The notes: generated by a model not told the origin, from the letters alone. A stretch of 64,000 nt of DNA from Gammaproteobacteria bacterium (GCA_965230425.1 CBDDKW010000024.1:141727-205726); one strand, 5' to 3'. Shown: positions 14,070 through 54,025, counted from the stretch's first letter. Program-made: numbers and translations.

Positions 14070-14319
14070 ATTACTCGCTTAGACAGCCCAAACAAGCATC
14101 CATTAACTGTGCTAGCAAGTATGCAAAGTTTTCTGGCTCTTTGCCTAGCTCATTCACCTCATACTACCCTCCAGCCCCAACAGAGGATATATTTTTAATT
14201 ACCTTGAGAATAATTCTGCTATAATCAATTAACTTATAAAAAATGTATAAAAAAATAAATTCCAAATAATACTTGTAATTATAACACTTAGTGGTATATT
14301 TAAAACATAAGGACATAGT

Positions 14320-14842
14320 ATGGTTATTTTAAAGGGTAAGTCGTTCACAAAGTGGGCAAAATCAGCAGGACTCAAAGACACTCAACTAGAACATGCAGTG
14401 AAGGAAAATAAAAATCCCCGAGGCAAGCCTCGGGGTATTTTATTTCCTAGTCATATTTCGCCTGCGCGAACCAAGTTCGCGCGACGGCGACTTAAGGGGA
14501 GTCTACACTGACTCCCCTTAAGAATCCCCAAGCGTAAAATGCCCGCAGCAAGCTGCGGGGAATCAAGTTGAAGTAGGATTATTCGACGTTCATCTTGGCA
14601 ATGGATTATACAAAAAACGTATTGCTAAAAAAGGCTTCGGCAAACGCTGTAGTTATAGAACTGTCTTAGCCTTTGCAGAAGATAAGCGAGCCATCTTTTT
14701 ATATGGTTTTCATAAAAAAGATAAAGCAAACTTATCAACTATAGAGCTAAAAGTTTATAAACAATTAGCCAAATTATTTTTGACAAGTAAGAATGATGAA
14801 TTACGTACATTGATTAACAATGGTGACTTAATGGAGGTTTAA
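14320..14842 (+). pseudogene. Disrupted HigB/RelE-family (COG4737-like) type II toxin gene. A 29-codon N-terminal fragment and an approximately 85-codon C-terminal fragment lie in different frames, separated by a hairpin-rich insertion.
   Basis: The N-fragment MVILKGKSFTKWAKSAGLKDTQLEHAVKE is followed by translation of the insertion. From about 14576, the C-fragment LFDVHLGNGLYKKRIAKKGFGKRCSYRTVLAFAEDKRAIFLYGFHKKDKANLS... is in another frame with no start codon. Together the fragments span a full-length toxin of about 114 aa. Confidence 0.6.
14407..14575. repeat. Composite element of four GC-rich hairpins (REP/MITE-like) inserted into the toxin gene
   Basis: H1 (14407-14444) is aataaaaa-tccccgagg-caag-cctcgggg-tattttatt. 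H2 (14464-14482) is gcgcgaac-caa-gttcgcgc. H3 (14491-14522) is cttaaggggagtc-tacact-gactccccttaag, a 13-bp stem. H4 (14542-14559) is cccgcag-caag-ctgcggg. H1 and H4 share the gcaagc loop core. Confidence 0.7.
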
Positions 14843-14843
14843 A

Positions 14844-15167
14844 ATGTCTATTATCAAAAAAAAGGATAAGTCAGCCCTTGAGGTTGCACATGAGTTAGCA
14901 CAAGGCTTGCATAAAGCCGGCGTCATTGATGCTGTTACCATGCGAGAGTTTGATGCTGATTGCTTGCCGGAGGTCAAAGTACTATCAGCACAAGACATTA
15001 AAGCATTAAGACTCAGAGAGAATATCAGCCAGCCTGTGTTTGCAAAATGCTTAAATACTACGCCATCCACAGTAAAACAATGGGAACAAGGTGATAAAAA
15101 CCCACGAGGCACATCCTTAAAGTTACTCAATCTTGTCTATGATAAAGGCCTAGGGATCTTATTCTAG
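14844..15167 (+). CDS. XRE-family HTH antitoxin (HigA-like partner of COG4737 toxins)
   Basis: 107 aa with a C-terminal HTH (ENISQPVFAKCLNTTPSTVKQWEQGDKNPRGTSLKLLNLV). It starts 1 nt after the toxin-remnant stop. Confidence 0.7.
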   Translation: MSIIKKKDKSALEVAHELAQGLHKAGVIDAVTMREFDADCLPEVKVLSAQDIKALRLRENISQPVFAKCLNTTPSTVKQWEQGDKNPRGTSLKLLNLVYDKGLGILF

Positions 15168-15506: not shown

Positions 15507-16497
15507 TTACCTTATCAAACATACACTCTCTCCTATTCCGACTTGTGATTGAACAATCAAAATATGGTGCTTACATTGTCGTATTTTGCGTAGTTGATAA
15601 TGATATGCAAGCAACAATGGCATACTCGCCGCACCTACATAACCCAAAGAATACTCTAATGAAAACAATTCGGGTTGACGGGGATCAGTTTTTCGTGAGT
15701 TTAAAAATACATCTCGGCGTATAATCTGCCACTTGTTAGCTTGCTGCTTCGAAGCAAGTGCATCAAGATATACAGCATTAATAGCATCTGTAGTAATAGA
15801 CCATGCTTGACACCTGTATTTTATACTATCTGTCCAATTAGAATATGATTTCCCTCTATTAGATTGTTTGGAAGATCTTATTTTAAGGTTATTGGCCTTA
15901 TCGGCTAAAGATATCTCCACAAATGCTGCCGCCTCGCCTGGAATAAACCCTACTTCTTGCGCATAATTATCGAGTAATTTATTTTGTCGCATCAGCGCAT
16001 ATAGAATATTCACTGTCAATAAAACTATCCACAGCACCTAGTAACACCTTATTCTCTGCATTATTTTTTAGATCAGTATACATCTGCTGACACAGTAGAT
16101 TAAATGGTGTATCCATTCCCTTAAATTGAATCGATACCTGGCAATCGCCAACATCACACAGCGTTAAAATGAATTTAAACAACGATTCACTAAAATAATC
16201 ACGTCGTTCTGCAGACAGTTCAGGCATCAATAAATAAATGGTAATGTGCTTATCTGATTTATACTGTGCGAGTAAGGGCTGTAAAGCTCGCTGCATTAAA
16301 TCAATAAGACGTTTTTCATAATTATTCATGGGTAGACTTGAATCATCAGCAATTAAGCCATAACTCAAATACTCTTGCTTAGCACAACGCAACCAATCTG
16401 CCTTATGAACTAAACTTTTACGTTGCTTCACTAGAGTAATTAACTCGACTAAAGAATCAGTTAAACCCGTTGCTATACTGGCATTGTTGATATACAT
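15507..16497 (-). pseudogene. Gene remnant split across two overlapping frames (172-aa and 176-aa ORFs overlapping by 59 nt), probably a frameshifted hypothetical gene
   Basis: ORFs 15979..16497 and 15507..16037 are on the same strand in different frames with a 59-nt overlap. A third frame (15207..15512) follows directly after the second stop. Confidence 0.45.
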
Positions 16498-16907: not shown

Positions 16908-19900
16908 ATGAGGATAATAACAGTGGCAAAGCATCTTCCTGCAGTGATTGCTGCAATTAAATCGACCTATGAAAATAATAAAGAAGTTATTGAAAGTAAT
17001 GAAAATACCAGTGAACTTATCCAGCTACTCGAACAAGACTCACCTCAATTTATTGATATTGTTCGCCATCTCTATGCGCTGCGCAACCAAACCACAAATG
17101 CTACTATTACAAAACTCACAAGAATCATTTTTTGTGCAGGTCATAAATATCCTTTGTCGTACCTAGCTAAACCAGAAGCTTCATTAAATCAATATGAACT
17201 ACAGCAGATTGAACAAAGTTATCAATTATTTGAAGCATGTGGAAACCAGGATAACAAATTTGAGACGCTACTAGTATTCATACTTAGTCTGTACAACATC
17301 GATGATTGTCAAATCGTCACAATGGACCAAACGGCAGAAAATACTCAAAAATTCCAGCAAGGTATTATCAAGATACTTCGGCTAGCCAATACCCCTGCTA
17401 GCAGAGATCATGAAGATAAAAATGAATATTCTTATCTATTGCGAATTATGATTTATGCTGATGCTACTGCAACTATTGATTTCCTAGATTGTTTTTGTAA
17501 AAAAGACGGATGTTACCAAACCACGGTCGAACAATTTTTTCAAAATGAGCGCATCATAGAGCCATTATGCACAGAATTTTTAAGTCAATTCAAAAGTATC
17601 ACCTCAAAACATGGCCGTTTATTACTGGCGAAACATCAACTATTGAGCCAGCTACACAGTATTCAGAATATAGAAGTTGATGAACCCTTTGCTGACATAT
17701 TCGCTCAATGCTCCGGCTATCAGATTAAGCAAGCAATAGCTAACATACAAAATCATCCTGCTTCAAACAGGAACACAGAACTATTATCTGCAATCATTGC
17801 ACGTTACCAATCACTTTGGCCTGAAAATGCCAACCCTATTCTTGAGAACAATGTAGATAATCTAGCGTTGCTTGTACGTTATTTCTATCTAATAGATGTT
17901 GTATTTAATCCTATACGCAACTTTATGAACTTCACTGCCCCTATTCCGAACACATTACCAGCAGATAAAACATCAACAGTTAGCCAGGTACTCTGTCTGC
18001 ATAATATGGATTGCCCAGTTACTCGTGCACCTTTACTGCTAACTGAAGATACTCCGCTAGTAACTGAGCGTAAATACATAAAGACCGCACAAACATATGT
18101 TATTACAGCCATAGACGTCATCGAAGAATTGATACAAATCATGGATAGCTTAAACGCAAAGATACAGTTACAAAATCAACTCTTGAAAAAATGCATAGAT
18201 TATTTTCACGCACTATTAGATGCCATACGATGGAATGATGGAAGTACATCACAAGAAACTTATGAAGGTTATATTCGTAATCTTCTGGAAGCAATGATGC
18301 CCTTATTAAAATCGAATAAGACACAAGAGCTTGCCACTGATCATTCTGAATTACCTAGCGATGCACTTAAAACTATCTATAAATCTTTAGTCAGCAAGCT
18401 ACCGCTAATGCAGTTGACTAGTCCATTTATAGACAATTTAGTAAATATATTCGACTGTTATCAAGATTTAACCATTTGGTCATTGCTTAAGAAATTTAAA
18501 CAGAATGAAACAAGATCAGATACTGTTCAAAAATTATTAGCGCATTTGAAGGTATCACCCAACTCAACGCCGCAGATGCAAGTTAATTATGCACAAGTGC
18601 TTTATCATGCGCATAAATATCACAGTTACGTACTCACACGAGATGACCTTAGCCAGATACTTATTTTTTGTCCTGAGCTTAGACAACAACTACGAGATGA
18701 CTTTAAAGATGATAGCAAGCAAACAGGCCGCTTAGTCTATTTGTCTTATATGATACAGACCTTTTATGGTGAGGATCTTGAAGCAGATACTGAATTTAAA
18801 GAAATAGCAGATGCACTTAGTAAACAAACAACCCTGGCAGCAAAATACTATGGACAACACCGCCCCACATTATTCAAATTAACTCAGCGCAGTACTTTCT
18901 TAAGCTTCGTCGGAAAACAGCAATTAGCAGATGAGAAATTTAGTGATGTCGATAATATTCAGACATTCCGTCAAATGATGTTGGATGTGCTACGCGAAGA
19001 TATTCCTCTCAGTGCCGAGCTCATAAGCTACGATCTTGTGAGTGAGTGCCCAACTGGTAGAGAACGCACACCAACAGACTTTATGACTCGTGAATTCTTA
19101 GGAGAGACTGCATCAACAACCATGCTATGGGCCTTGGTTATTATGCGTCATTACGCACTAGAAGATGAAAACCCAGATAATGAATTTATTCAAGCCTGTG
19201 AACATAACATCGTTGCATTATTGCATGAAAGTATGGCTACTCGCTTTAAACCATCACCCTATATGGACCTCCCAGGCTATTTAGATGCCCATTTAGCCGA
19301 GTGCTTAGTAAACCTATCTGACAATGAACGTGCTCATATCCCTAATACAGAGGAACTCATCACTGGCCATTATCAACGTGCATTTACGCGAGGTTATCAG
19401 ACGAGGCAGCTTGCTAATCCCGCTCACTTTCCTCGCTATATCGATGTGCTAACAAAAGAAGTCTCACTATCACACTGGCAGATGCTGCAGGCCCTGTTTG
19501 CAGAATGTATACGCGCTGACGAACAAGCTAGCTTTGACAATGAAATATATGCCAAATTAATTATTTATTATAATACCTTAAGGAGCCAACACCCCCAGCA
19601 TCAACGCTTGCATGATATTGAAGCTCAGCTAGATCAGCTAGGCGCCGCACCTTATCAAACATCAGAAAGCTCGGCTCCCCTTGGTCATTGTCGCCTCAGA
19701 TTTTATTTGGCATTGATTTGCATGAATATCTATTGCGATACAATTTTAGATGAAATACTGGCTATACGAACAATCACAGATGAAACACAACAACGAGTTA
19801 TCTTAATTGATATACTGCAGCAATTAGTTGAAAACTATGAACGGTTTAACTTTGATGCGACCAAAGTATCTCAATCACTCGGCAAACTTTTTAAGGCTAT

Positions 19901-29807: not shown

Positions 29808-31328
29808 CTATTTGCGGCGTGAACGTATTTTTTCAGGTTTTTGTCGCTTGCCTACTTTTCGCTTTGCAGAAGACGGGGCTTTCTTCTTTGCACCCTTAAA
29901 TGAGCGTTCCTTCTTGAATTCACGATCTTTTGTGTTACGAGAACGACTAGATGGCTTCCCTCTCGAGCGAGCAGGCTTATGACGTCGCTTCTCAGGCTCA
30001 GCGTCAACGGCAACAATATCATGGGTAGGTAATTCATTCGCCTGATCCATCAAATAAGCCAGTGCTGCAGCAATATCTTCTGCGGCATAGCCTTCATCTT
30101 CTTGCATAATCTCTTGAACCATTTCCCGATAGGTATCCAAACGCTTACTCTTGTTAATAATACCCGTTACTTTTTCGGTGAGCTGTTTACTGCGTATGGC
30201 TTTCATTTCTTGTAGGGTGGGTGCTTCAATTTGTGTAATTGATTTATTGATAGCGCGCTCAATATCTTTTAATAAACGTTGCTCTCTTGGAGTCACAAAC
30301 AACAGCGCCTTACCCTTGCGTCCTGCACGGCCAGTTCTACCAATACGATGAATATAGCATTCAGCATCATAGGGAATGTCAATATTAATCACATGACTGA
30401 CTCGCTCTACATCAATCCCCCGTGCAGCAATATCTGTGGCCACGACAATATCTAAAGAGCCATTTTTTAAGCGTTCAACCACTTTTTTACGCGCAGCTTG
30501 GTTCATATCACCATTGAGTGGAGCCGCTGCATAACCGCGTGCCTGTAGCCTCTCAGCAAGCTCTGTTGAATAGGTCTTCGTGCGTGAAAAAATAATCGCA
30601 GCTTGGATATCTTCCACCTCAAGGAAGCGGGTCAAAACATCAAGCTTTTGATTTCTGGCAACTCGAATAAAACATTGCTCAATGGTATCCACTGTATTGT
30701 GTTGTGGCTCAATATGAATTCTTTCAGCATGTTTTAAATAGCGCTTAGCTATTTTTTGAATCGGTGCAGGCATGGTCGCAGAAAACAGTGCCGTTTGGTG
30801 TTGATGAGGAATTTGTTCAAGGATCCATTCAATGTCCTTTACAAACCCCATATTCAGCATTTCATCTGCCTCATCTAACACCACCATTTGTAGTGCGTCA
30901 ACGCTCAAAGTACCACGGCGCATATGGTCCATCACCCGCCCTGGCGTCCCCACCACCACGTGTGCACCACGTTTCAAAGCACGTAATTGGATCCTGTATT
31001 CCTGACCACCATAAATAGGCGCAACATGAAAACCAGGCATATCTTTAGCATAACTTTGGCAGGCTTCCGCCACTTGGATGGCTAGCTCGCGGGTTGGAGC
31101 AATAATCAATACCTGTGGTTCATCCATGGATAGATCTAATTGCGACAATGCAGGTAAAGCAAAGGCGGCTGTCTTACCCGTGCCTGTTTGCGCCTGCGCT
31201 AATAGATCATGCCCTTGCATTAAAACCGGGATACTTTGTGCCTGGATTGGTGTCGGCGTCTCATAGCCCAAGGTCTTTAAAGCTGTTAACAGTGCAGAGG
31301 CAAGGCCCAATTCATTAAATTGACTCAT
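29808..31328 (-). CDS. DEAD-box ATP-dependent RNA helicase (RhlE/DeaD family) with a basic C-terminal tail
   Basis: Has a Q-motif, Walker A (AQTGTGKT), DEAD (VLDEADEM), SAT and HRIGRTGR motifs. The C-terminal 70 aa are rich in Lys/Arg/Ser. Confidence 0.9.
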   Translation of the reverse strand: MSQFNELGLASALLTALKTLGYETPTPIQAQSIPVLMQGHDLLAQAQTGTGKTAAFALPALSQLDLSMDEPQVLIIAPTRELAIQVAEACQSYAKDMPGFHVAPIYGGQEYRIQLRALKRGAHVVVGTPGRVMDHMRRGTLSVDALQMVVLDEADEMLNMGFVKDIEWILEQIPHQHQTALFSATMPAPIQKIAKRYLKHAERIHIEPQHNTVDTIEQCFIRVARNQKLDVLTRFLEVEDIQAAIIFSRTKTYSTELAERLQARGYAAAPLNGDMNQAARKKVVERLKNGSLDIVVATDIAARGIDVERVSHVINIDIPYDAECYIHRIGRTGRAGRKGKALLFVTPREQRLLKDIERAINKSITQIEAPTLQEMKAIRSKQLTEKVTGIINKSKRLDTYREMVQEIMQEDEGYAAEDIAAALAYLMDQANELPTHDIVAVDAEPEKRRHKPARSRGKPSSRSRNTKDREFKKERSFKGAKKKAPSSAKRKVGKRQKPEKIRSRRK

Positions 31329-31717
31329 AGATAGATCCTAATTGTGATACCCAACATTATTGGCGGATATAGTAAACAAATAACCAGCCGGACATGAAAC
31401 CATGAGGGATTCGTAATGAAAGCCTGAGCAACATATTAGGCGCTGCGCATTATACGACCAGAATGTTCGGATGTCACGGATTATAGACCATAAATTAAAC
31501 AAAGAATCGCTATCATATAGTGTTTTTATTTTAAATCAATGAGTTACAATCAATTCTACCAATGGATGAATGCTGTCATACCGAGCGCGACGAGATATCC
31601 CCTTACAACTTGACTACCTAGAACGCTATTTTGTTGACATTAACTCAACCACCTGGAGATATCTCGCTACGCTCGATATGGTAAGCGCTACAGCCAGCCA
31701 CCACATAAGATGGACAT

Positions 31718-31775
31718 TGACTAAACAGCGTTGTATACTGCCCCACCCTTATATTTAGGTCGCATAAATATAAGG
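31718..31775 (+). promoter_or_regulatory. Putative sigma70 promoter (TTGACT, 17-nt spacer, TATACT) followed by a 9-bp-arm palindrome (ttatatttaggtcgcataaatataa) at the predicted transcription start, upstream of rplY
   Basis: Hexamers match consensus. A perfect inverted repeat overlaps the transcription start. About 100 nt of 5' UTR precede the rplY RBS. Confidence 0.45.
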
Positions 31776-31873
31776 AGAATCAAGTTAAACTAATCGTAGC
31801 GGTCTACCACAGGAAAGTGCTGATTTTGGCAATAAATTTCCTAGTAAAGGCTGACTACAGCAGGAGAAATACA

Positions 31874-34430: not shown

Positions 34431-34507
34431 GGCTATGTAGCTCAGCTGGTTAGAGCACAGCACTCATAATGCTGGGGTCGGTGGTTCGAGTCCACCCATA
34501 GCCACCA
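34431..34507 (+). tRNA. tRNA-Met (elongator, anticodon CAT)
   Basis: GGCTATGTAGCTCAGCTGGTTAGAGCACAGCACTCATAATGCTGGGGTCGGTGGTTCGAGTCCACCCATAGCCACCA is very similar to E. coli metT. A TTGACA -35 element lies at 34390-34395. Confidence 0.9.
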
Positions 34508-38723: not shown

Positions 38724-39587
38724 ATGATCAAAAAAAATGAAATTCAAAGAGTAGCACAGGCTTTCTCATTACCTCAGAACTCCATTGAAAAAGATTATAT
38801 TCTCAGTTGGCTTTTAGCTGGTATCTATAACAGACATGCGTTAAAAAACCAATGGGTTTTTAAAGGAGGTACTTGTATAAAAAAATGTTTCATCGAAACT
38901 TACCGATTTTCAGAAGATCTTGATTTTACTATCTTAGATCCTAAACAGATTGACACCTCATTTTTACAGTCTGAATTTCAAGCCATTAGTGAGTGGATAT
39001 ACGAACACTCAGGCATTGAAGTGCCATTCCATGAAGTAAAATTTGAAAAATACATTAATCCTAGAGCACAAGAATCTATTGAAGGTAAAGTTCCATATAA
39101 AGGGCCTCTGCAGAGACGAGGCAACAATCCTAATGTTAAATTAAATTTAACATTTGATGAAATCCTCGTTACTCCTCCAAAACCCACACCAATTTTGCAT
39201 CACTACACTGATAGTGAAGATTTTGATAATCTAAAAGCACTATCATATTGCCTCGACGAATTATTTGCAGAAAAAATGAGAGCTTTTATTGAACGCACTC
39301 GTCCGCGTGATTTATTTGATATTATCAGCATATTTTCACATGATGAACTTGTACTAAATAAAGGTAACGTACAATCTATCTTCATCAAAAAGTGCCAGCA
39401 TAAAGGTATAAAAAATATCAAAACTGAGCTACTCAATACAGAACTTAAAAAAAATGAGCTTTTTAGTGACTGGGAATATATGTTGTCACATCAGATAGCT
39501 AATTTACCACCTTGCGAAAACTATTGGAGTAAAATACCCTCTTTATTTGGCTGGCTAACAGATGGATTAAATGATGACACTACGTAG
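38724..39587 (+). CDS. AbiEii/AbiGii family nucleotidyltransferase toxin (DUF1814)
   Basis: Has motif I (FKGGTCIKKCF), motif II (YRFSEDLDFTI) and motif III (ELFAEKMRAF), all characteristic of AbiEii NTases. Confidence 0.8.
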   Translation: MIKKNEIQRVAQAFSLPQNSIEKDYILSWLLAGIYNRHALKNQWVFKGGTCIKKCFIETYRFSEDLDFTILDPKQIDTSFLQSEFQAISEWIYEHSGIEVPFHEVKFEKYINPRAQESIEGKVPYKGPLQRRGNNPNVKLNLTFDEILVTPPKPTPILHHYTDSEDFDNLKALSYCLDELFAEKMRAFIERTRPRDLFDIISIFSHDELVLNKGNVQSIFIKKCQHKGIKNIKTELLNTELKKNELFSDWEYMLSHQIANLPPCENYWSKIPSLFGWLTDGLNDDTT

Positions 39588-39616
39588 CAAACTGTTGTGT
39601 CATATATTACTCCCAA

Positions 39617-39671
39617 ATTACTTCTGGATTACTTCTGGATTACTTCTGGATTACTTCTGGATTACTTCTGG
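39617..39671. repeat. Perfect tandem repeat (attacttctgg)x5 with an 11-bp unit, directly downstream of the AbiEii gene
   Basis: Five identical head-to-tail copies plus a partial sixth (att). Confidence 0.95.
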
Positions 39672-52663: not shown

Positions 52664-52891
52664 AAATCCATACCTCACTGTAGTAAAAAACCACTAAAAC
52701 TTGATATTTTGGGGTGGCGTCAGTATATCTGAAAAATATTCAGCCGTCGCCTATCTTATGCACAAAAAAATATTGCATTAATTGATATAACAATTATAAT
52801 TCTGTGATATATTCTGATTGATTACAAAATAATGTGAAAAAATATAGCGCATAATTGATAAATGCTTGCTAAACTCAACAGTAAGGATAGA

Positions 52892-54025
52892 ATGATGGCA
52901 TCAGCAATAGACACGCTCACTATCACAAATGAATTGAAACAAGGTGGCTTCGATCAGCGTCAAGCTGAAGTACAAGCTAAGATATACTTAAATATTATGC
53001 ACTACTTAATATCTGACCAAATAGCAAACAAAGACGATGTGAAACATATCGAAAATACGTTTAAAGACGATGCAAAACACATCGAAATCATGTTTAAAAA
53101 TGATATCAATGCCCTACGTAAGAACAATGAAGAAAGCATACGCCAGCAATTTAAGCAACAAAATCTCATCTTCCAAAGTCAATTGCAAAGCTTTAGCACT
53201 GAATTTCAAGGCCAACTAAAAAGCCTTAGCAGCGAAGTTGATGCTAAAATCGCTAAACTTGATAGCAAAATCACAAATCTCGTCGTCCAATCTGAAACTA
53301 AACTCGATACAAAACTCGACGGCATCAACAACAAGATGGATGAGGGGTTTACTGATACCAACAACAAAACGGATAAGAAACTTACAGACACCAACAATAA
53401 AATGGATGAGAAATTTACTGCATTCAACAGCGAGATGGATAAGAGATTTGCTGAAGTTCACAGCAAAATGGATAAAAAATTCGTCGAAATCGACAATAAA
53501 TTCATCCAGCTTGAAAAGAAAATGGATGAGAAATTTACTGCCTTCAACAACGAGATGGATAAGAGATTTGCTGAAGTTCACAGCAAAATGGATAAAAAAT
53601 TCGTCGAAATCGACAATAGATTCATCCGGCTTGAAAAGAAAATGGATGAGAAATTTACTGCCTTCAACAACGAGATGGATAAGAGATTTGCTGAAGTTCA
53701 CAGCAAAATGGATAAGGGATTTGCTGAGGTTCATGGCAGAATGGATAAAAAATTCGCCGAAATCGACAATAGATTCATCCGGCTTGAAAGCAAAATGGAT
53801 AAAAAGTTCGCCGAAATCGATAAGAAATTCGCCCAAATCGATGATCACTTCATCAAGATTAACACACAGATTTCACAACTTACCACACAGATCTCACAAC
53901 TAGGTGAAAAAATTGTCCAACAAGAAATGAATATTTATCGCAAATTAATCAAATTCACATTTTGCTGCATCACAGCCGTCACCGGCATAAGTGGCACCAT
54001 CGGTTATCTGCTTCACAGCTTATAA
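52892..54025 (+). CDS. Coiled-coil protein with a DUF1640/XhlA-like N-terminus, tandem 40-aa repeats and a C-terminal transmembrane anchor
   Basis: The N-terminus (AIDTLTITNELKQGGFDQRQAEVQAKIYL) resembles DUF1640. The repeats have the form KMDEKFTAFNNEMDKRFAEVHSKMDKKFVEIDNRFIRLEK. The C-terminal hydrophobic segment is FTFCCITAVTGISGTIGYLL. Confidence 0.7.
   Translation: MMASAIDTLTITNELKQGGFDQRQAEVQAKIYLNIMHYLISDQIANKDDVKHIENTFKDDAKHIEIMFKNDINALRKNNEESIRQQFKQQNLIFQSQLQSFSTEFQGQLKSLSSEVDAKIAKLDSKITNLVVQSETKLDTKLDGINNKMDEGFTDTNNKTDKKLTDTNNKMDEKFTAFNSEMDKRFAEVHSKMDKKFVEIDNKFIQLEKKMDEKFTAFNNEMDKRFAEVHSKMDKKFVEIDNRFIRLEKKMDEKFTAFNNEMDKRFAEVHSKMDKGFAEVHGRMDKKFAEIDNRFIRLESKMDKKFAEIDKKFAQIDDHFIKINTQISQLTTQISQLGEKIVQQEMNIYRKLIKFTFCCITAVTGISGTIGYLLHSL
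53332..53860. repeat. Intragenic tandem repeat with a 120-bp period: two perfect-register copies at 53401-53520 and 53521-53640, a third partial copy, and flanking degenerate 33-bp sub-repeats
   Basis: The copies at 53401-53520 and 53521-53640 differ at only a few positions. The third copy keeps about 75 nt and then diverges. Confidence 0.9.

What the first reader, a model, noticed from the sequence alone, without database searches (positions are those of the whole stretch)
14407..14575. Four-hairpin REP/MITE-like composite element, with a dispersed copy at the prs/helicase terminator
About 170 bp made of four tightly packed GC-rich palindromes (H1-H4, including a perfect 13-bp stem) sit inside a toxin gene. 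H1 and H4 share a ggcaagcc / agcaagct loop core. Module H1 (A-run, ccccgagg-caag-cctcgggg, T-run) recurs at 29768-29805 with 36 of 38 identities, where it acts as the bidirectional terminator between prs and the DEAD-box helicase gene. A 38-bp near-identity at two unrelated loci is unlikely by chance. This implies a dispersed, possibly mobile, small palindromic repeat family that also supplies terminators.
Basis: seen in the sequence. Interest (0 to 1): 0.72.

Follow-up and report, generated by a model that had tools for sequence, protein, structure and literature searches.

The report
IS200-type miniature transposon splitting a toxin gene
The four-hairpin block is a 160-bp gene-less derivative of an IS200/IS605-family insertion sequence that has jumped cleanly into a RelE-type toxin gene, and the 44-bp "copy" behind prs is a leftover right end of the same element; this is a real but ordinary kind of mobile DNA.

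Summary
Window 14406-14575 holds four stable hairpins, and 14406-14449 recurs at 29767-29810 (41/44 identical).

The element is not a REP/BIME, Correia, ERIC or RPE element. It is a non-autonomous IS200/IS605-family element (a PATE-like MITE).

- H1 and H4 are the right-end and left-end subterminal hairpins, read on the minus strand.
- The same hairpins, with a conserved CTTG loop and covarying stems, flank Y1-transposase (tnpA) genes in 17 fetched loci and TnpB genes on haloarchaeal plasmids.
- The insertion is seamless: 160 bp, no terminal inverted repeats, no target duplication.
- It lies 3' of TTCAA, which fits the family target TTNAA.
- Removing it restores a full-length RelE (PF06296) toxin.
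- Sibling four-hairpin copies exist in metagenomes. These include identical copies at different sites and compensatory stem changes.

The prs/deaD copy is a right-end-only remnant. It plausibly acts as a bidirectional terminator, as the IS200 end hairpin does, but this was not tested.

Verdict: new member of a known kind, low to moderate interest.

The parts
14408..14567 (-). 160-bp non-autonomous IS200/IS605-type element (PATE-like MITE). The top (tnpA-sense) strand is the window minus strand. Boundaries are uncertain by 1-2 nt (alternatives 14407-14566 and 14409/10-14568/9).
   Evidence: Seamless interruption of the RelE ORF. Ends match autonomous IS200-like elements. Sibling copies end at the same bases.
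14408..14449 (-). Right end (RE) with hairpin H1 (14416-14435). On the minus strand it reads AATA-CCCCGAGG-CTTG-CCTCGGGG-ATTTTTAT|. It is also terminator-like on both strands.
   Evidence: Same geometry and near-identical sequence to the REs directly downstream of tnpA in L038, L041, L064, L069, L112 and others. Terminator scan hits on both strands.
14458..14490 (.). Internal hairpin H2 (TCGCC-TGCGCGAAC-caa-GTTCGCGC-GA-CGGCGA).
   Evidence: Conserved with changed stem bases in sibling copies L045, L115 and L142.
14491..14522 (.). Internal hairpin H3, a perfect 13-bp stem with a conserved AAGGGGAG/CTCCCCTT core.
   Evidence: I4. Seven distinct sibling sequences; four stem positions show 2-3 Watson-Crick pair types and no broken pairs.
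14536..14567 (-). Left end (LE) with hairpin H4 (14541-14560). On the minus strand it reads |CTTGATT-CCCGCAGC-TTG-CTGCGGG. The linker is unusually short, 7 nt instead of 19.
   Evidence: CGCAGCAAGCTGCGGGGAAT is 20/20 identical to the reverse complement of the LE of the tnpA-carrying element in L033. Siblings L063, L119 and L121 have the same short end.
14568..14572 (-). Target pentanucleotide TTCAA (minus strand) immediately 5' of the LE.
   Evidence: The family target is TTNAA. With this boundary the restored codon is ATT (Ile), the residue found in all three homologs.
14320..14407 (+). 5' part of the interrupted RelE/PF06296 toxin gene (MVILKGKSFTKWAKSAGLKDTQLEHAVKE...).
14568..14842 (+). 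3' part of the toxin gene, in a different reading frame from the 5' part (...EVGLFDVHLGNGLYKKR...DLMEV, then stop).
14844..15167 (+). Cognate antitoxin-like ORF (HTH_3), intact and downstream of the insertion.
   Evidence: PF01381, E = 1.2e-6.
29767..29810 (-). Solo right-end copy. On the minus strand it reads TAGGCAATAAAATA-CCCCGTGG-CTTG-CCTCGGGG-AGTTTTATTT. It lies between convergent prs (stop at 29730-29732) and deaD, and overlaps the deaD stop codon at 29808-29810.
   Evidence: 41/44 identity to 14406-14449. Folds at -17 and -21 kcal/mol with flanking T-runs. No left end nearby.

Best explanation

Anatomy, read on the window minus strand:
- A left end: hairpin H4, preceded by a 7-nt linker.
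- Two internal stuffer hairpins, H3 and H2.
- A right end: hairpin H1, followed by ATTTTTAT.

Inferred mechanism:
- A Y1 (HUH) TnpA transposase encoded elsewhere would bind the two CTTG-loop hairpins on single-stranded DNA.
- It would cut at sites chosen by base pairing with the bases just 5' of each hairpin, excise the top strand as a circle, and paste it 3' of a TTNAA target.
- Here it landed 3' of TTCAA inside a RelE-type toxin gene. The insertion splits and frameshifts the gene and places a bidirectional terminator-like hairpin in the toxin-antitoxin operon.
- This family excises precisely, so the disruption is reversible in principle.

The 44-bp copy behind prs is a right end only (guide, hairpin and cleavage site). 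It is most likely the remnant of a full copy truncated when the deaD segment came to lie between prs and rplY. It now probably serves as the shared terminator of prs and deaD.

Shown: the anatomy, homology of the ends to tnpA-flanking ends, the seamless insertion, the target motif, and stem covariation.
Inferred: mobilisation in trans, terminator activity, and the origin of the solo copy.
For: 1. The end hairpins flank real transposase genes.
- L033 carries a complete IS200-like element. Its LE is TTTAA|TCAAAAAGAGGGTTTAATT-CCCCGCAGCTTGCTGCG, its tnpA matches Pfam Y1_Tnp (E = 4e-35), and its RE is ATA-CCCCGCAGCTTGCTGCGGGG-TAGTTCAT|.
- A scan with the window's RE pattern hit its 120-stretch limit. 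In the 80 loci classified first (L037-L116), a tnpA ends 3-56 nt from the hairpin in 11, and a second-hairpin MITE follows in at least 32. In all, 17 of the loci fetched by then (L001-L156) carry a TnpA homolog.
- On haloarchaeal plasmids the same hairpin flanks TnpB genes (OrfB_IS605 plus Cas12f1-like_TNB).

2. The geometry matches IS608.
- In L033 the linker from the LE cleavage site to the hairpin foot is 19 nt, exactly as in IS608.
- RE cleavage is 8-9 nt 3' of the hairpin foot, against 10 nt in IS608 (PMC3201880).

3. There are no TIRs and no TSD. Removing 160 bp restores a RelE protein that matches PF06296 at positions 1-120 of 120.

4. The target fits.
- The LE-flanking pentamer is TTNAA in 40+ distinct copies.
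- Its middle base is Watson-Crick complementary to the base 4 nt 5' of the LE hairpin foot (T:A 22, C:G 13, G:C 3). This is the guide/cleavage-site rule of the family.
- The window copy has G there and TTCAA as its flank.

5. The stems covary.
- 85% of the two free RE stem pairs are Watson-Crick across 78 loci, with 6 different fully complementary two-pair combinations.
- H3 shows compensatory changes at 4 positions.

6. The element is mobile. Identical four-hairpin copies sit at different sites (L045 versus L052; L119 versus L121), and L146 holds at least two further interior-type matches within 8 kb.

7. Orientation fits. The top strand is the minus strand, which is the leading-strand sequence here: GC skew is negative on the plus strand and the 16S gene is on the minus strand. 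That places the active strand on the lagging-strand template, as is typical for the family (PMC5027513).

8. There is precedent for the terminator role. The IS200 left-end hairpin is a bidirectional rho-independent terminator (PMC4513863).
Against: - No tnpA or tnpB was found in the 64-kb window, and the rest of the genome could not be fetched. A cognate transposase in this organism is therefore unproven.
- The window element's LE linker is 7 nt, not about 19. Whether TnpA can use it is unknown.
- Three sibling copies with the same LE (L063, L119, L121) do not obey the G:C guide/target rule (flanks TTTCA, TTAAA, TTTAA).
- The exact boundary is ambiguous by 1-2 nt because no empty site is available.
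- The orientation argument rests on n = 2.
- The solo copy's stem has an A-A mismatch and was not called terminator-like by the simple scan.
Confidence: 0.85

Rival explanations
1. It is a REP/BIME-type (REPIN) repeat mobilised by a RAYT (TnpA_REP), not an IS200/IS605 derivative.
For: REPs are short GC-rich extragenic palindromes. They resemble IS200/IS605 end hairpins, are handled by Y1-family enzymes and can act as terminators (PMC3333891, listed). The solo copy is extragenic and sits at gene ends.
Against: - The two end hairpins are in direct orientation (CAAG loops on the same strand), not inverted as in REPINs or BIMEs.
- There is no GTAG or CGTC head next to the stems.
- The full copy is intragenic.
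- The same ends bracket roughly 650-700-bp elements that carry tnpA and occur at several different sites, which is IS200 organisation and not that of a single-copy RAYT.
Confidence: 0.05
2. It is a classical cut-and-paste MITE with terminal inverted repeats and target-site duplications. Examples are Coxiella QMITE2, Correia, ERIC and Rickettsia RPE.
For: The size (160 bp), the strong secondary structure, the Legionellales-like host and the location near gene 3' ends all resemble QMITE2 (150-190 bp, full and short versions; PMC5896051).
Against: - There is no direct repeat abutting the ends and no TIR beyond the internal palindromes.
- QMITE2 has 7-11-nt DRs and a GTAG REP core. Neither is present here.
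- The insert is 160 bp (not a multiple of 3) and brings an in-frame stop (ORF 14320-14511), so it is not an RPE-like in-frame insertion.
Confidence: 0.03
3. The 44-nt similarity is convergence between two ordinary intrinsic terminators, not common descent.
For: Both copies are GC-rich stems flanked by A- and T-runs.
Against: - 41/44 identity covers the loop and the non-pairing flanks (TTTCCTA versus TTGCCTA).
- Zero matches were expected in shuffles.
Confidence: 0.01

Closest known systems
IS200 (IS200/IS605 family, Y1 HUH transposase TnpA) and its gene-less derivatives, the PATEs (palindrome-associated transposable elements; Dyall-Smith 2011, PMC3119063; PATE-like elements in Geobacillus, PMC10055086, and Halanaerobium, PMC7290912)
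   Same: - Subterminal hairpins at both ends in direct orientation.
- No TIRs and no TSD.
- Insertion 3' of a fixed pentanucleotide.
- Guide/target complementarity.
- Right-end geometry.
- Ends nearly identical to those of tnpA-carrying elements.
- No coding capacity.
   Different: - The left-end linker is 7 nt instead of about 19.
- The interior is not a remnant of tnpA or tnpB but two extra conserved hairpins (H2, H3). These define a four-hairpin subfamily that I did not find described.
- No cognate tnpA was seen in the available 64 kb.
IS608 (Helicobacter pylori), the mechanistic model of the family
   Same: - Cleavage sites lie at a distance from the hairpins: LE 19 nt 5' of the foot (found identically in L033), RE about 10 nt 3' of the foot.
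- Cleavage sites are recognised by the bases 5' of the hairpin foot.
- Excision is precise and transposition is strand-specific.
   Different: - The target is TTNAA rather than TTAC.
- The hairpin sequence and loop (CTTG) differ.
- The window element carries no genes.
REP/BIME elements with RAYT transposases
   Same: Short GC-rich palindromes related to IS200/IS605 ends, often at gene 3' ends with terminator-like effects.
   Different: REPs carry GTAG or CGTC heads, occur as inverted pairs and are extragenic. Here the hairpins are direct, lack those heads, and one copy sits inside a gene.
Coxiella burnetii QMITE2 (PMC5896051)
   Same: Similar size, very stable multi-hairpin fold, full and short versions, gene-end locations, and a host in the same broad lineage.
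   Different: QMITE2 has TIRs, 7-11-nt direct repeats and a GTAG REP that IS1111 targets. None of these is seen here. The sequences could not be compared.

Membership tests
IS200/IS605-derived non-autonomous element (PATE-like MITE) | Subterminal imperfect palindromes at both ends, in the same (direct) orientation | tested here: met
   H1 and H4 both carry the CAAG loop on the plus strand (28 nt, 79% identical).
IS200/IS605-derived non-autonomous element (PATE-like MITE) | Ends homologous to those of autonomous elements encoding a Y1 TnpA | tested here: met
   L033 carries LE, tnpA (PF01797, E = 4e-35) and RE. In 11 of the 80 metagenome loci classified, a complete tnpA ends 3-56 nt from an RE that matches the window's 30-nt RE pattern, which leaves four stem positions free. 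17 of the loci fetched by then carry TnpA homologs.
IS200/IS605-derived non-autonomous element (PATE-like MITE) | No terminal inverted repeats and no target-site duplication; seamless insertion | tested here: met
   Removing 160 bp restores RelE, which then matches PF06296 at positions 1-120 of 120. No direct repeat abuts the ends.
IS200/IS605-derived non-autonomous element (PATE-like MITE) | Insertion 3' of a specific tetra- or pentanucleotide that flanks the LE | tested here: met
   The family flank is TTNAA. The window flank is TTCAA with boundary 14567/14568. The boundary itself is uncertain by 1-2 nt.
IS200/IS605-derived non-autonomous element (PATE-like MITE) | Cleavage-site geometry (LE site about 19 nt 5' of the hairpin foot; RE site about 10 nt 3' of it) | tested here: inconclusive
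   RE: 8-9 nt, which fits. LE: 19 nt in L033 and other autonomous copies, but only 7 nt in the window copy and its siblings L063, L119 and L121.
IS200/IS605-derived non-autonomous element (PATE-like MITE) | Target base pairs with the guide bases 5' of the LE hairpin foot | tested here: met
   Covariation table: T:A 22, C:G 13, G:C 3. The window copy has G with TTCAA. Three short-LE siblings do not follow the rule.
IS200/IS605-derived non-autonomous element (PATE-like MITE) | A cognate tnpA in the same genome to mobilise it in trans | not testable with these tools
   None in the 64-kb window. The source assembly (a 207,884-bp contig) could not be fetched.
IS200/IS605-derived non-autonomous element (PATE-like MITE) | Active (top) strand on the lagging-strand template | tested here: met
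   The top strand is the minus strand. The plus strand has negative GC skew and the 16S gene is on the minus strand. Only 2 copies, so this is a weak test.
REP/BIME (RAYT-associated) | GTAG or CGTC tetranucleotide head next to the palindrome; inverted REP pairs | tested here: not met
   The stems are preceded by AAAT and AATG. The loops show direct, not inverted, orientation.
REP/BIME (RAYT-associated) | Extragenic location | tested here: not met
   The full copy interrupts a RelE ORF.
Coxiella QMITE2 | TIRs, 7-11-nt flanking direct repeats and a GTAG REP core | tested here: not met
   None of these is present. Definition taken from PMC5896051.
Coxiella QMITE2 | Sequence similarity to CbsR16/QMITE2 copies | not testable with these tools
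   No QMITE2 sequence was available. There was no Coxiella hit in the plasmid collection.
Classical TIR MITEs (Correia, ERIC) and in-frame RPE | TIRs with a TA or short TSD; for RPE, an in-frame insertion tolerated by the protein | tested here: not met
   No TIR and no TSD. The insert is 160 bp, shifts the frame and brings a stop (ORF 14320-14511).
Rho-independent (intrinsic) terminator | GC-rich stem-loop followed by a T/U tract | tested here: inconclusive
   H1 in the toxin gene is called on both strands. The prs/deaD copy has an A-A mismatch and was not called, but it folds at -17 and -21 kcal/mol with T-runs on both sides. No transcript data are available.
Described structured RNA family (Rfam) | Match to a covariance model | tested here: not met
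   Nothing at gathering score over the element. The best E-value hits are weak chance-level matches. Nothing in sibling loci.

The most novel reading that the evidence does not exclude
The four-hairpin elements may be more than dead transposon ends. Their interior (H2-H3, with the conserved AAGGGGAG/CTCCCCTT core and compensatory stem changes across hosts) could be a functional cargo. One option is a structured RNA, such as a guide (omega-RNA-like) scaffold used in trans. Another is a module that makes the element a precisely excisable, terminator-carrying switch that reversibly silences the genes it enters, here a toxin-antitoxin operon.
Probability: 0.1. Interest if true: 0.6.

Novelty: new member of a known kind. 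Interest (0 to 1): 0.3.

Why it matters
- It explains a pseudogenised RelE-type toxin and a shared prs/deaD terminator-like hairpin in a poorly sampled Legionellales-like genome, so annotators can avoid calling spurious short ORFs there.
- One IS200 end type (CTTG-loop hairpin, TTNAA target) is shared almost base for base between bacteria of several phyla and haloarchaeal TnpB elements.
- Natural copies display the guide/target covariation that was demonstrated experimentally for IS608.
- The four-hairpin subfamily, with its short left end and conserved interior, is a convenient natural test case for how much left-end linker TnpA needs.
- None of this changes current understanding of the family.

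Tried and rejected
- **Coxiella QMITE1/2.** This was my first guess, from GC content and size. It was dropped because QMITE2 is defined by DRs, TIRs and a GTAG REP that are absent here. The paper's supplements hold no sequences.
- **Rfam.** No family was found at gathering or E-value thresholds, in the window or in sibling loci.
- **Ribozyme, CRISPR-repeat, attC and IS91 resemblances.** I considered these from memory and dropped them once tnpA- and tnpB-flanking copies were found.
- **Fetching the source genome.** Exact-protein look-ups failed five times. Cluster look-up gave no accession.
- **Literature search by sequence string.** Nothing found.
- **Search for the H2 interior motif in viral contigs.** Nothing found.
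- **tblastn for TnpB and TnpA in the window.** Nothing found.
- **Interior versus autonomous elements.** blastn of the interior (H2-H3) matched only other four-hairpin MITEs, so its origin remains unknown.
- **Toxin homologs.** The closest are only 47-53% identical, so no empty-site allele is available to fix the boundary.
- **Formal covariance model of the whole element.** Not built. Stem covariation was counted directly instead.

Full report
**1. The observation**

- Between 14406 and 14575 there are four tight palindromes: H1 at 14416-14435 (CCCCGAGG-CAAG-CCTCGGGG, extended by complementary A- and T-runs), H2 at 14458-14490, H3 at 14491-14522 (perfect 13-bp stem) and H4 at 14541-14560 (CCCGCAG-CAAG-CTGCGGG).
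- The block folds far better than shuffled controls. As RNA it gives -91.1 kcal/mol, z = -10.0. As minus-strand DNA it gives -52 kcal/mol, z = -9.65.
- H1 and H4 with their flanks are 79% identical over 28 nt.
- The module 14406-14449 recurs at 29767-29810 with 41/44 identities. No match to its core is expected by chance.
- These are the only hairpins of this type in the 64 kb.

**2. The gene that is interrupted**

- The ORF starting at 14320 encodes MVILKGKSFTKWAKSAGLKDTQLEHAVKE....
- After the block, in a different frame, the sequence continues EVGLFDVHLGNGLYKKR...DLMEV.
- The joined 120-aa protein matches Pfam RelE (PF06296) over profile positions 1-120 of 120, E = 1.3e-35. An HTH_3 antitoxin-like ORF follows at 14844-15167.
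- The nearest database homologs are only 47-53% identical. They align without a gap across the junction and carry E-I-E where the window reads E-(N/I/V)-E.
- The insertion is therefore exactly 160 bp. It is not a multiple of three, and it is seamless, with no duplicated flank.

**3. What the hairpins are**

An exact scan of one genome per species for TCCCCGAGGCAAGCCNCGGGGTA did not find the source genome. It did find 22 loci in Treponema, Lentisphaeria/Victivallaceae, Deltaproteobacteria, Patescibacteria and a gammaproteobacterial MAG. Several genomes had more than one locus, and many hits lay at contig ends.
- All showed the same plan: a first hairpin, 60-130 nt, then a second hairpin with the same CAAG loop on the same strand. 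One-hairpin versions also occurred.
- blastn against plasmids found the same hairpins in Piscirickettsia, Leptolyngbya and haloarchaeal megaplasmids.

On the haloarchaeal plasmids the hairpin lies about 60-100 nt upstream of a gene matching OrfB_IS605 plus Cas12f1-like_TNB (TnpB). A second copy of the hairpin sits at the gene's 3' end.

A viral-contig hit, L033, carries a complete IS200-like element:
- LE: TTTAA|TCAAAAAGAGGGTTTAATT-CCCCGCAGCTTGCTGCG.
- A 156-aa ORF matching Pfam Y1_Tnp (E = 4e-35).
- RE: ATA-CCCCGCAGCTTGCTGCGGGG-TAGTTCAT|.
- The window's H4 plus flank (CGCAGCAAGCTGCGGGGAAT) is 20/20 identical to the reverse complement of this LE.

Of the 80 loci classified first:
- 11 have a complete tnpA ending 3-56 nt from the hairpin.
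- 27 were classified as two-hairpin MITEs and 5 as four-hairpin MITEs.
- 22 fell into a solo/other class. Many of these are, by eye, also two-hairpin MITEs with mutated loops.
- 15 are cut by contig ends.

In all, 17 of the loci fetched by then (L001-L156) carry a TnpA homolog. One search shows complete elements of roughly 650-700 bp with LE and RE.

[quoted passage not shown] The tnpA-sense (top) strand is the window minus strand. H4 is the LE hairpin and H1 is the RE hairpin.

**4. Fit to the known mechanism**

IS608 has the following features (PMC3201880):
- TnpA binds the two subterminal hairpins on single-stranded DNA.
- LE cleavage occurs 3' of a target tetranucleotide 19 nt 5' of the hairpin foot. 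The target is not part of the IS.
- RE cleavage occurs about 10 nt 3' of the hairpin foot.
- Both cleavage sites are recognised by pairing with the four bases 5' of the hairpin foot.
- Excision leaves the donor without gain or loss of bases.

Here:
- The LE linker is exactly 19 nt in L033.
- RE ends lie 8-9 nt after the foot (TNAT, usually followed by T) in all lineages.
- The pentamer 5' of the LE is TTNAA.
- Its middle base is Watson-Crick complementary to the base 4 nt 5' of the LE hairpin foot: T with A 22 times, C with G 13 times, G with C 3 times. Only the copies with T at that position are promiscuous.
- The window copy has G at that position. With the boundary at 14567/14568 its flank is TTCAA. 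That boundary also restores ATT (Ile), the residue present in all three homologs.
- Stems covary while the loop stays fixed. 85% of the two unconstrained RE stem pairs are Watson-Crick across 78 distinct loci, with six different fully complementary two-pair combinations.
- Orientation also fits, though weakly. The active strand is the minus strand, which has the leading-strand composition here and carries the 16S gene. The active strand therefore lies on the lagging-strand template, as reported for the family (PMC5027513).

**5. The four-hairpin subfamily**

Metagenome loci L045/L052/L116, L063/L065, L115, L119/L121, L132, L142 and L146 carry elements with the same order H1-H2-H3-H4 and recognisable sequence.
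- L045 and L052 are identical copies at different sites, as are L119 and L121. blastn of the interior gave at least two further matches within the 8 kb of L146. The subfamily is, or recently was, mobile.
- H3 shows seven distinct sequences with two or three Watson-Crick pair types at four stem positions and no broken pairs. H1, H2 and H4 show similar swaps.
- Their LE is short: CTTGATT, ATTTATT or TGTGAAGATTT before the hairpin. The window's 7-nt linker is therefore a subfamily trait and not damage.
- With this short LE the flank is TTCAA (window), TTAAA, TTTAA or TTTCA. The guide rule seen in canonical copies is not obeyed by the siblings.
- The interior matches nothing in the autonomous elements fetched and no Rfam family. 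Its origin and any function are unknown.

**6. The copy behind prs**

On the minus strand 29767-29810 reads TAGGCAATAAAATA-CCCCGTGG-CTTG-CCTCGGGG-AGTTTTATTT. This is a full RE (guide, hairpin and cleavage site) plus 14 nt of the element interior. There is no LE nearby.
- It is a right-end remnant of the window's own lineage of the element, not an independently mobile H1 module.
- It lies 34 nt after the prs stop and overlaps the deaD stop codon (29808-29810).
- Related genomes have hemA-lolB-prs-rplY-pth-ychF. In the window, deaD and about 490 bp of upstream sequence sit between prs and rplY. The remnant therefore marks the prs-side junction of a lineage-specific rearrangement, which may be what truncated it (inference).
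- As a terminator it is plausible. It has A/T-run flanks on both sides and folds at -17 kcal/mol (plus strand) and -21 kcal/mol (minus strand). The IS200 end hairpin is a documented bidirectional rho-independent terminator (PMC4513863).
- However, its stem has an A-A mismatch and the simple scan did not call it. By contrast, H1 inside the toxin gene is called on both strands.

**7. Consequences (inferred)**

- The toxin is truncated after 30 residues, with 33 element-encoded residues added (ORF 14320-14511).
- The H1 terminator-like hairpin probably also reduces read-through from the promoter-like site at 14273-14300 into the antitoxin gene.
- Because family members excise precisely, the toxin gene could in principle be restored if a TnpA is present.

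**8. Host**

Prs has a 100% identical entry from a 207,884-bp NCBI/ENA contig, but that contig could not be fetched. The next hits are 74-81% identical, and the named ones are Legionellales MAGs and Legionella. Window GC content is about 41%.

**9. Verdict**

- The interpretation (a small mobile palindromic family that also sits at a gene-end terminator position) is right in outline. It is wrong in family assignment and in treating H1 as the mobile unit.
- The element is a new member of a known kind (an IS200/IS605 PATE-like MITE) and belongs to an apparently undescribed four-hairpin, short-LE subfamily.
- The main gaps are that no cognate tnpA has been shown in this genome, the junction is uncertain by 1-2 nt, and there are no transcript data.

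Noticed in passing
window 31575-31681: A second, unrelated palindromic element of about 107 bp (GTCATACCGAGCGCGACGAGATATC ... GAGATATCTCGCTACGCTCGATATG) lies in the deaD-rplY spacer. It occurs once in the window. Its arms resemble the internal arms (gtcattccgagcacagcgaggaatc...) found inside several two-hairpin IS200-type MITEs from metagenomes (L050, L066, L107, L120).
   Followed up: partly
window 29733-31816, compared with L157 and L158: Relatives have prs directly followed by rplY-pth-ychF. In the window, deaD (minus strand) plus about 490 bp is inserted between prs and rplY. The solo right-end hairpin sits exactly at the prs-side junction.
   Followed up: partly
loci L001-L156 (LE flanks): Natural copies of this IS200 lineage show near-perfect Watson-Crick covariation between the middle base of the TTNAA target and the base 4 nt 5' of the left-end hairpin foot (T:A 22, C:G 13, G:C 3). 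Copies with T at that position accept any middle base.
   Followed up: yes
L024, L026, L027 (haloarchaeal megaplasmids) versus bacterial loci: The end hairpin (TCCCCGAGG(T)CAAGCCTCGGGGTAT) and part of the left-end tail (GACTTTYGAWTAAA) are almost identical between haloarchaeal TnpB-only elements and Treponema MITEs. This points to a very widely shared TnpA recognition module or to inter-domain transfer.
   Followed up: partly
L009, L011, L015, L016 (Treponema MAGs): One-hairpin mini-elements (RE tail, a single hairpin and the LE linker, about 50 nt) recur at different sites with the same boundaries. A single hairpin may therefore serve as both ends.
   Followed up: no
window 39606-39671: Tandem repeat of an 11-nt unit (ATTACTTCTGG, about 6 copies) just downstream of the ORF ending at 39587.
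   Followed up: no
window 52862-54025 (repeats at 53330-53856): A 387-aa ORF built from periodic 33/87/120-nt repeats (...KMDKKFVEIDNKF...-like units). It overlaps long ORFs in other frames that are probably spurious.
   Followed up: no
window 16908-22073; also 15507-16497 (minus strand): A 1721-aa ORF with no Pfam hit at all lies just downstream of the toxin-antitoxin locus, in a lower-GC stretch (about 36-39%). Two overlapping ORFs of 172 and 176 aa also have no Pfam hit.
   Followed up: no
window 26730-26757: A perfect 28-bp AT-rich palindrome (TACTATCGTATATCGATATACGATAGTA) lies in the hemA-lolB spacer.
   Followed up: no
window 1-212, 28572-28643, 34431-34504: The 5' end of a 16S rRNA gene lies on the minus strand at the window start. 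Two tRNA genes are present, one immediately upstream of prs.
   Followed up: no
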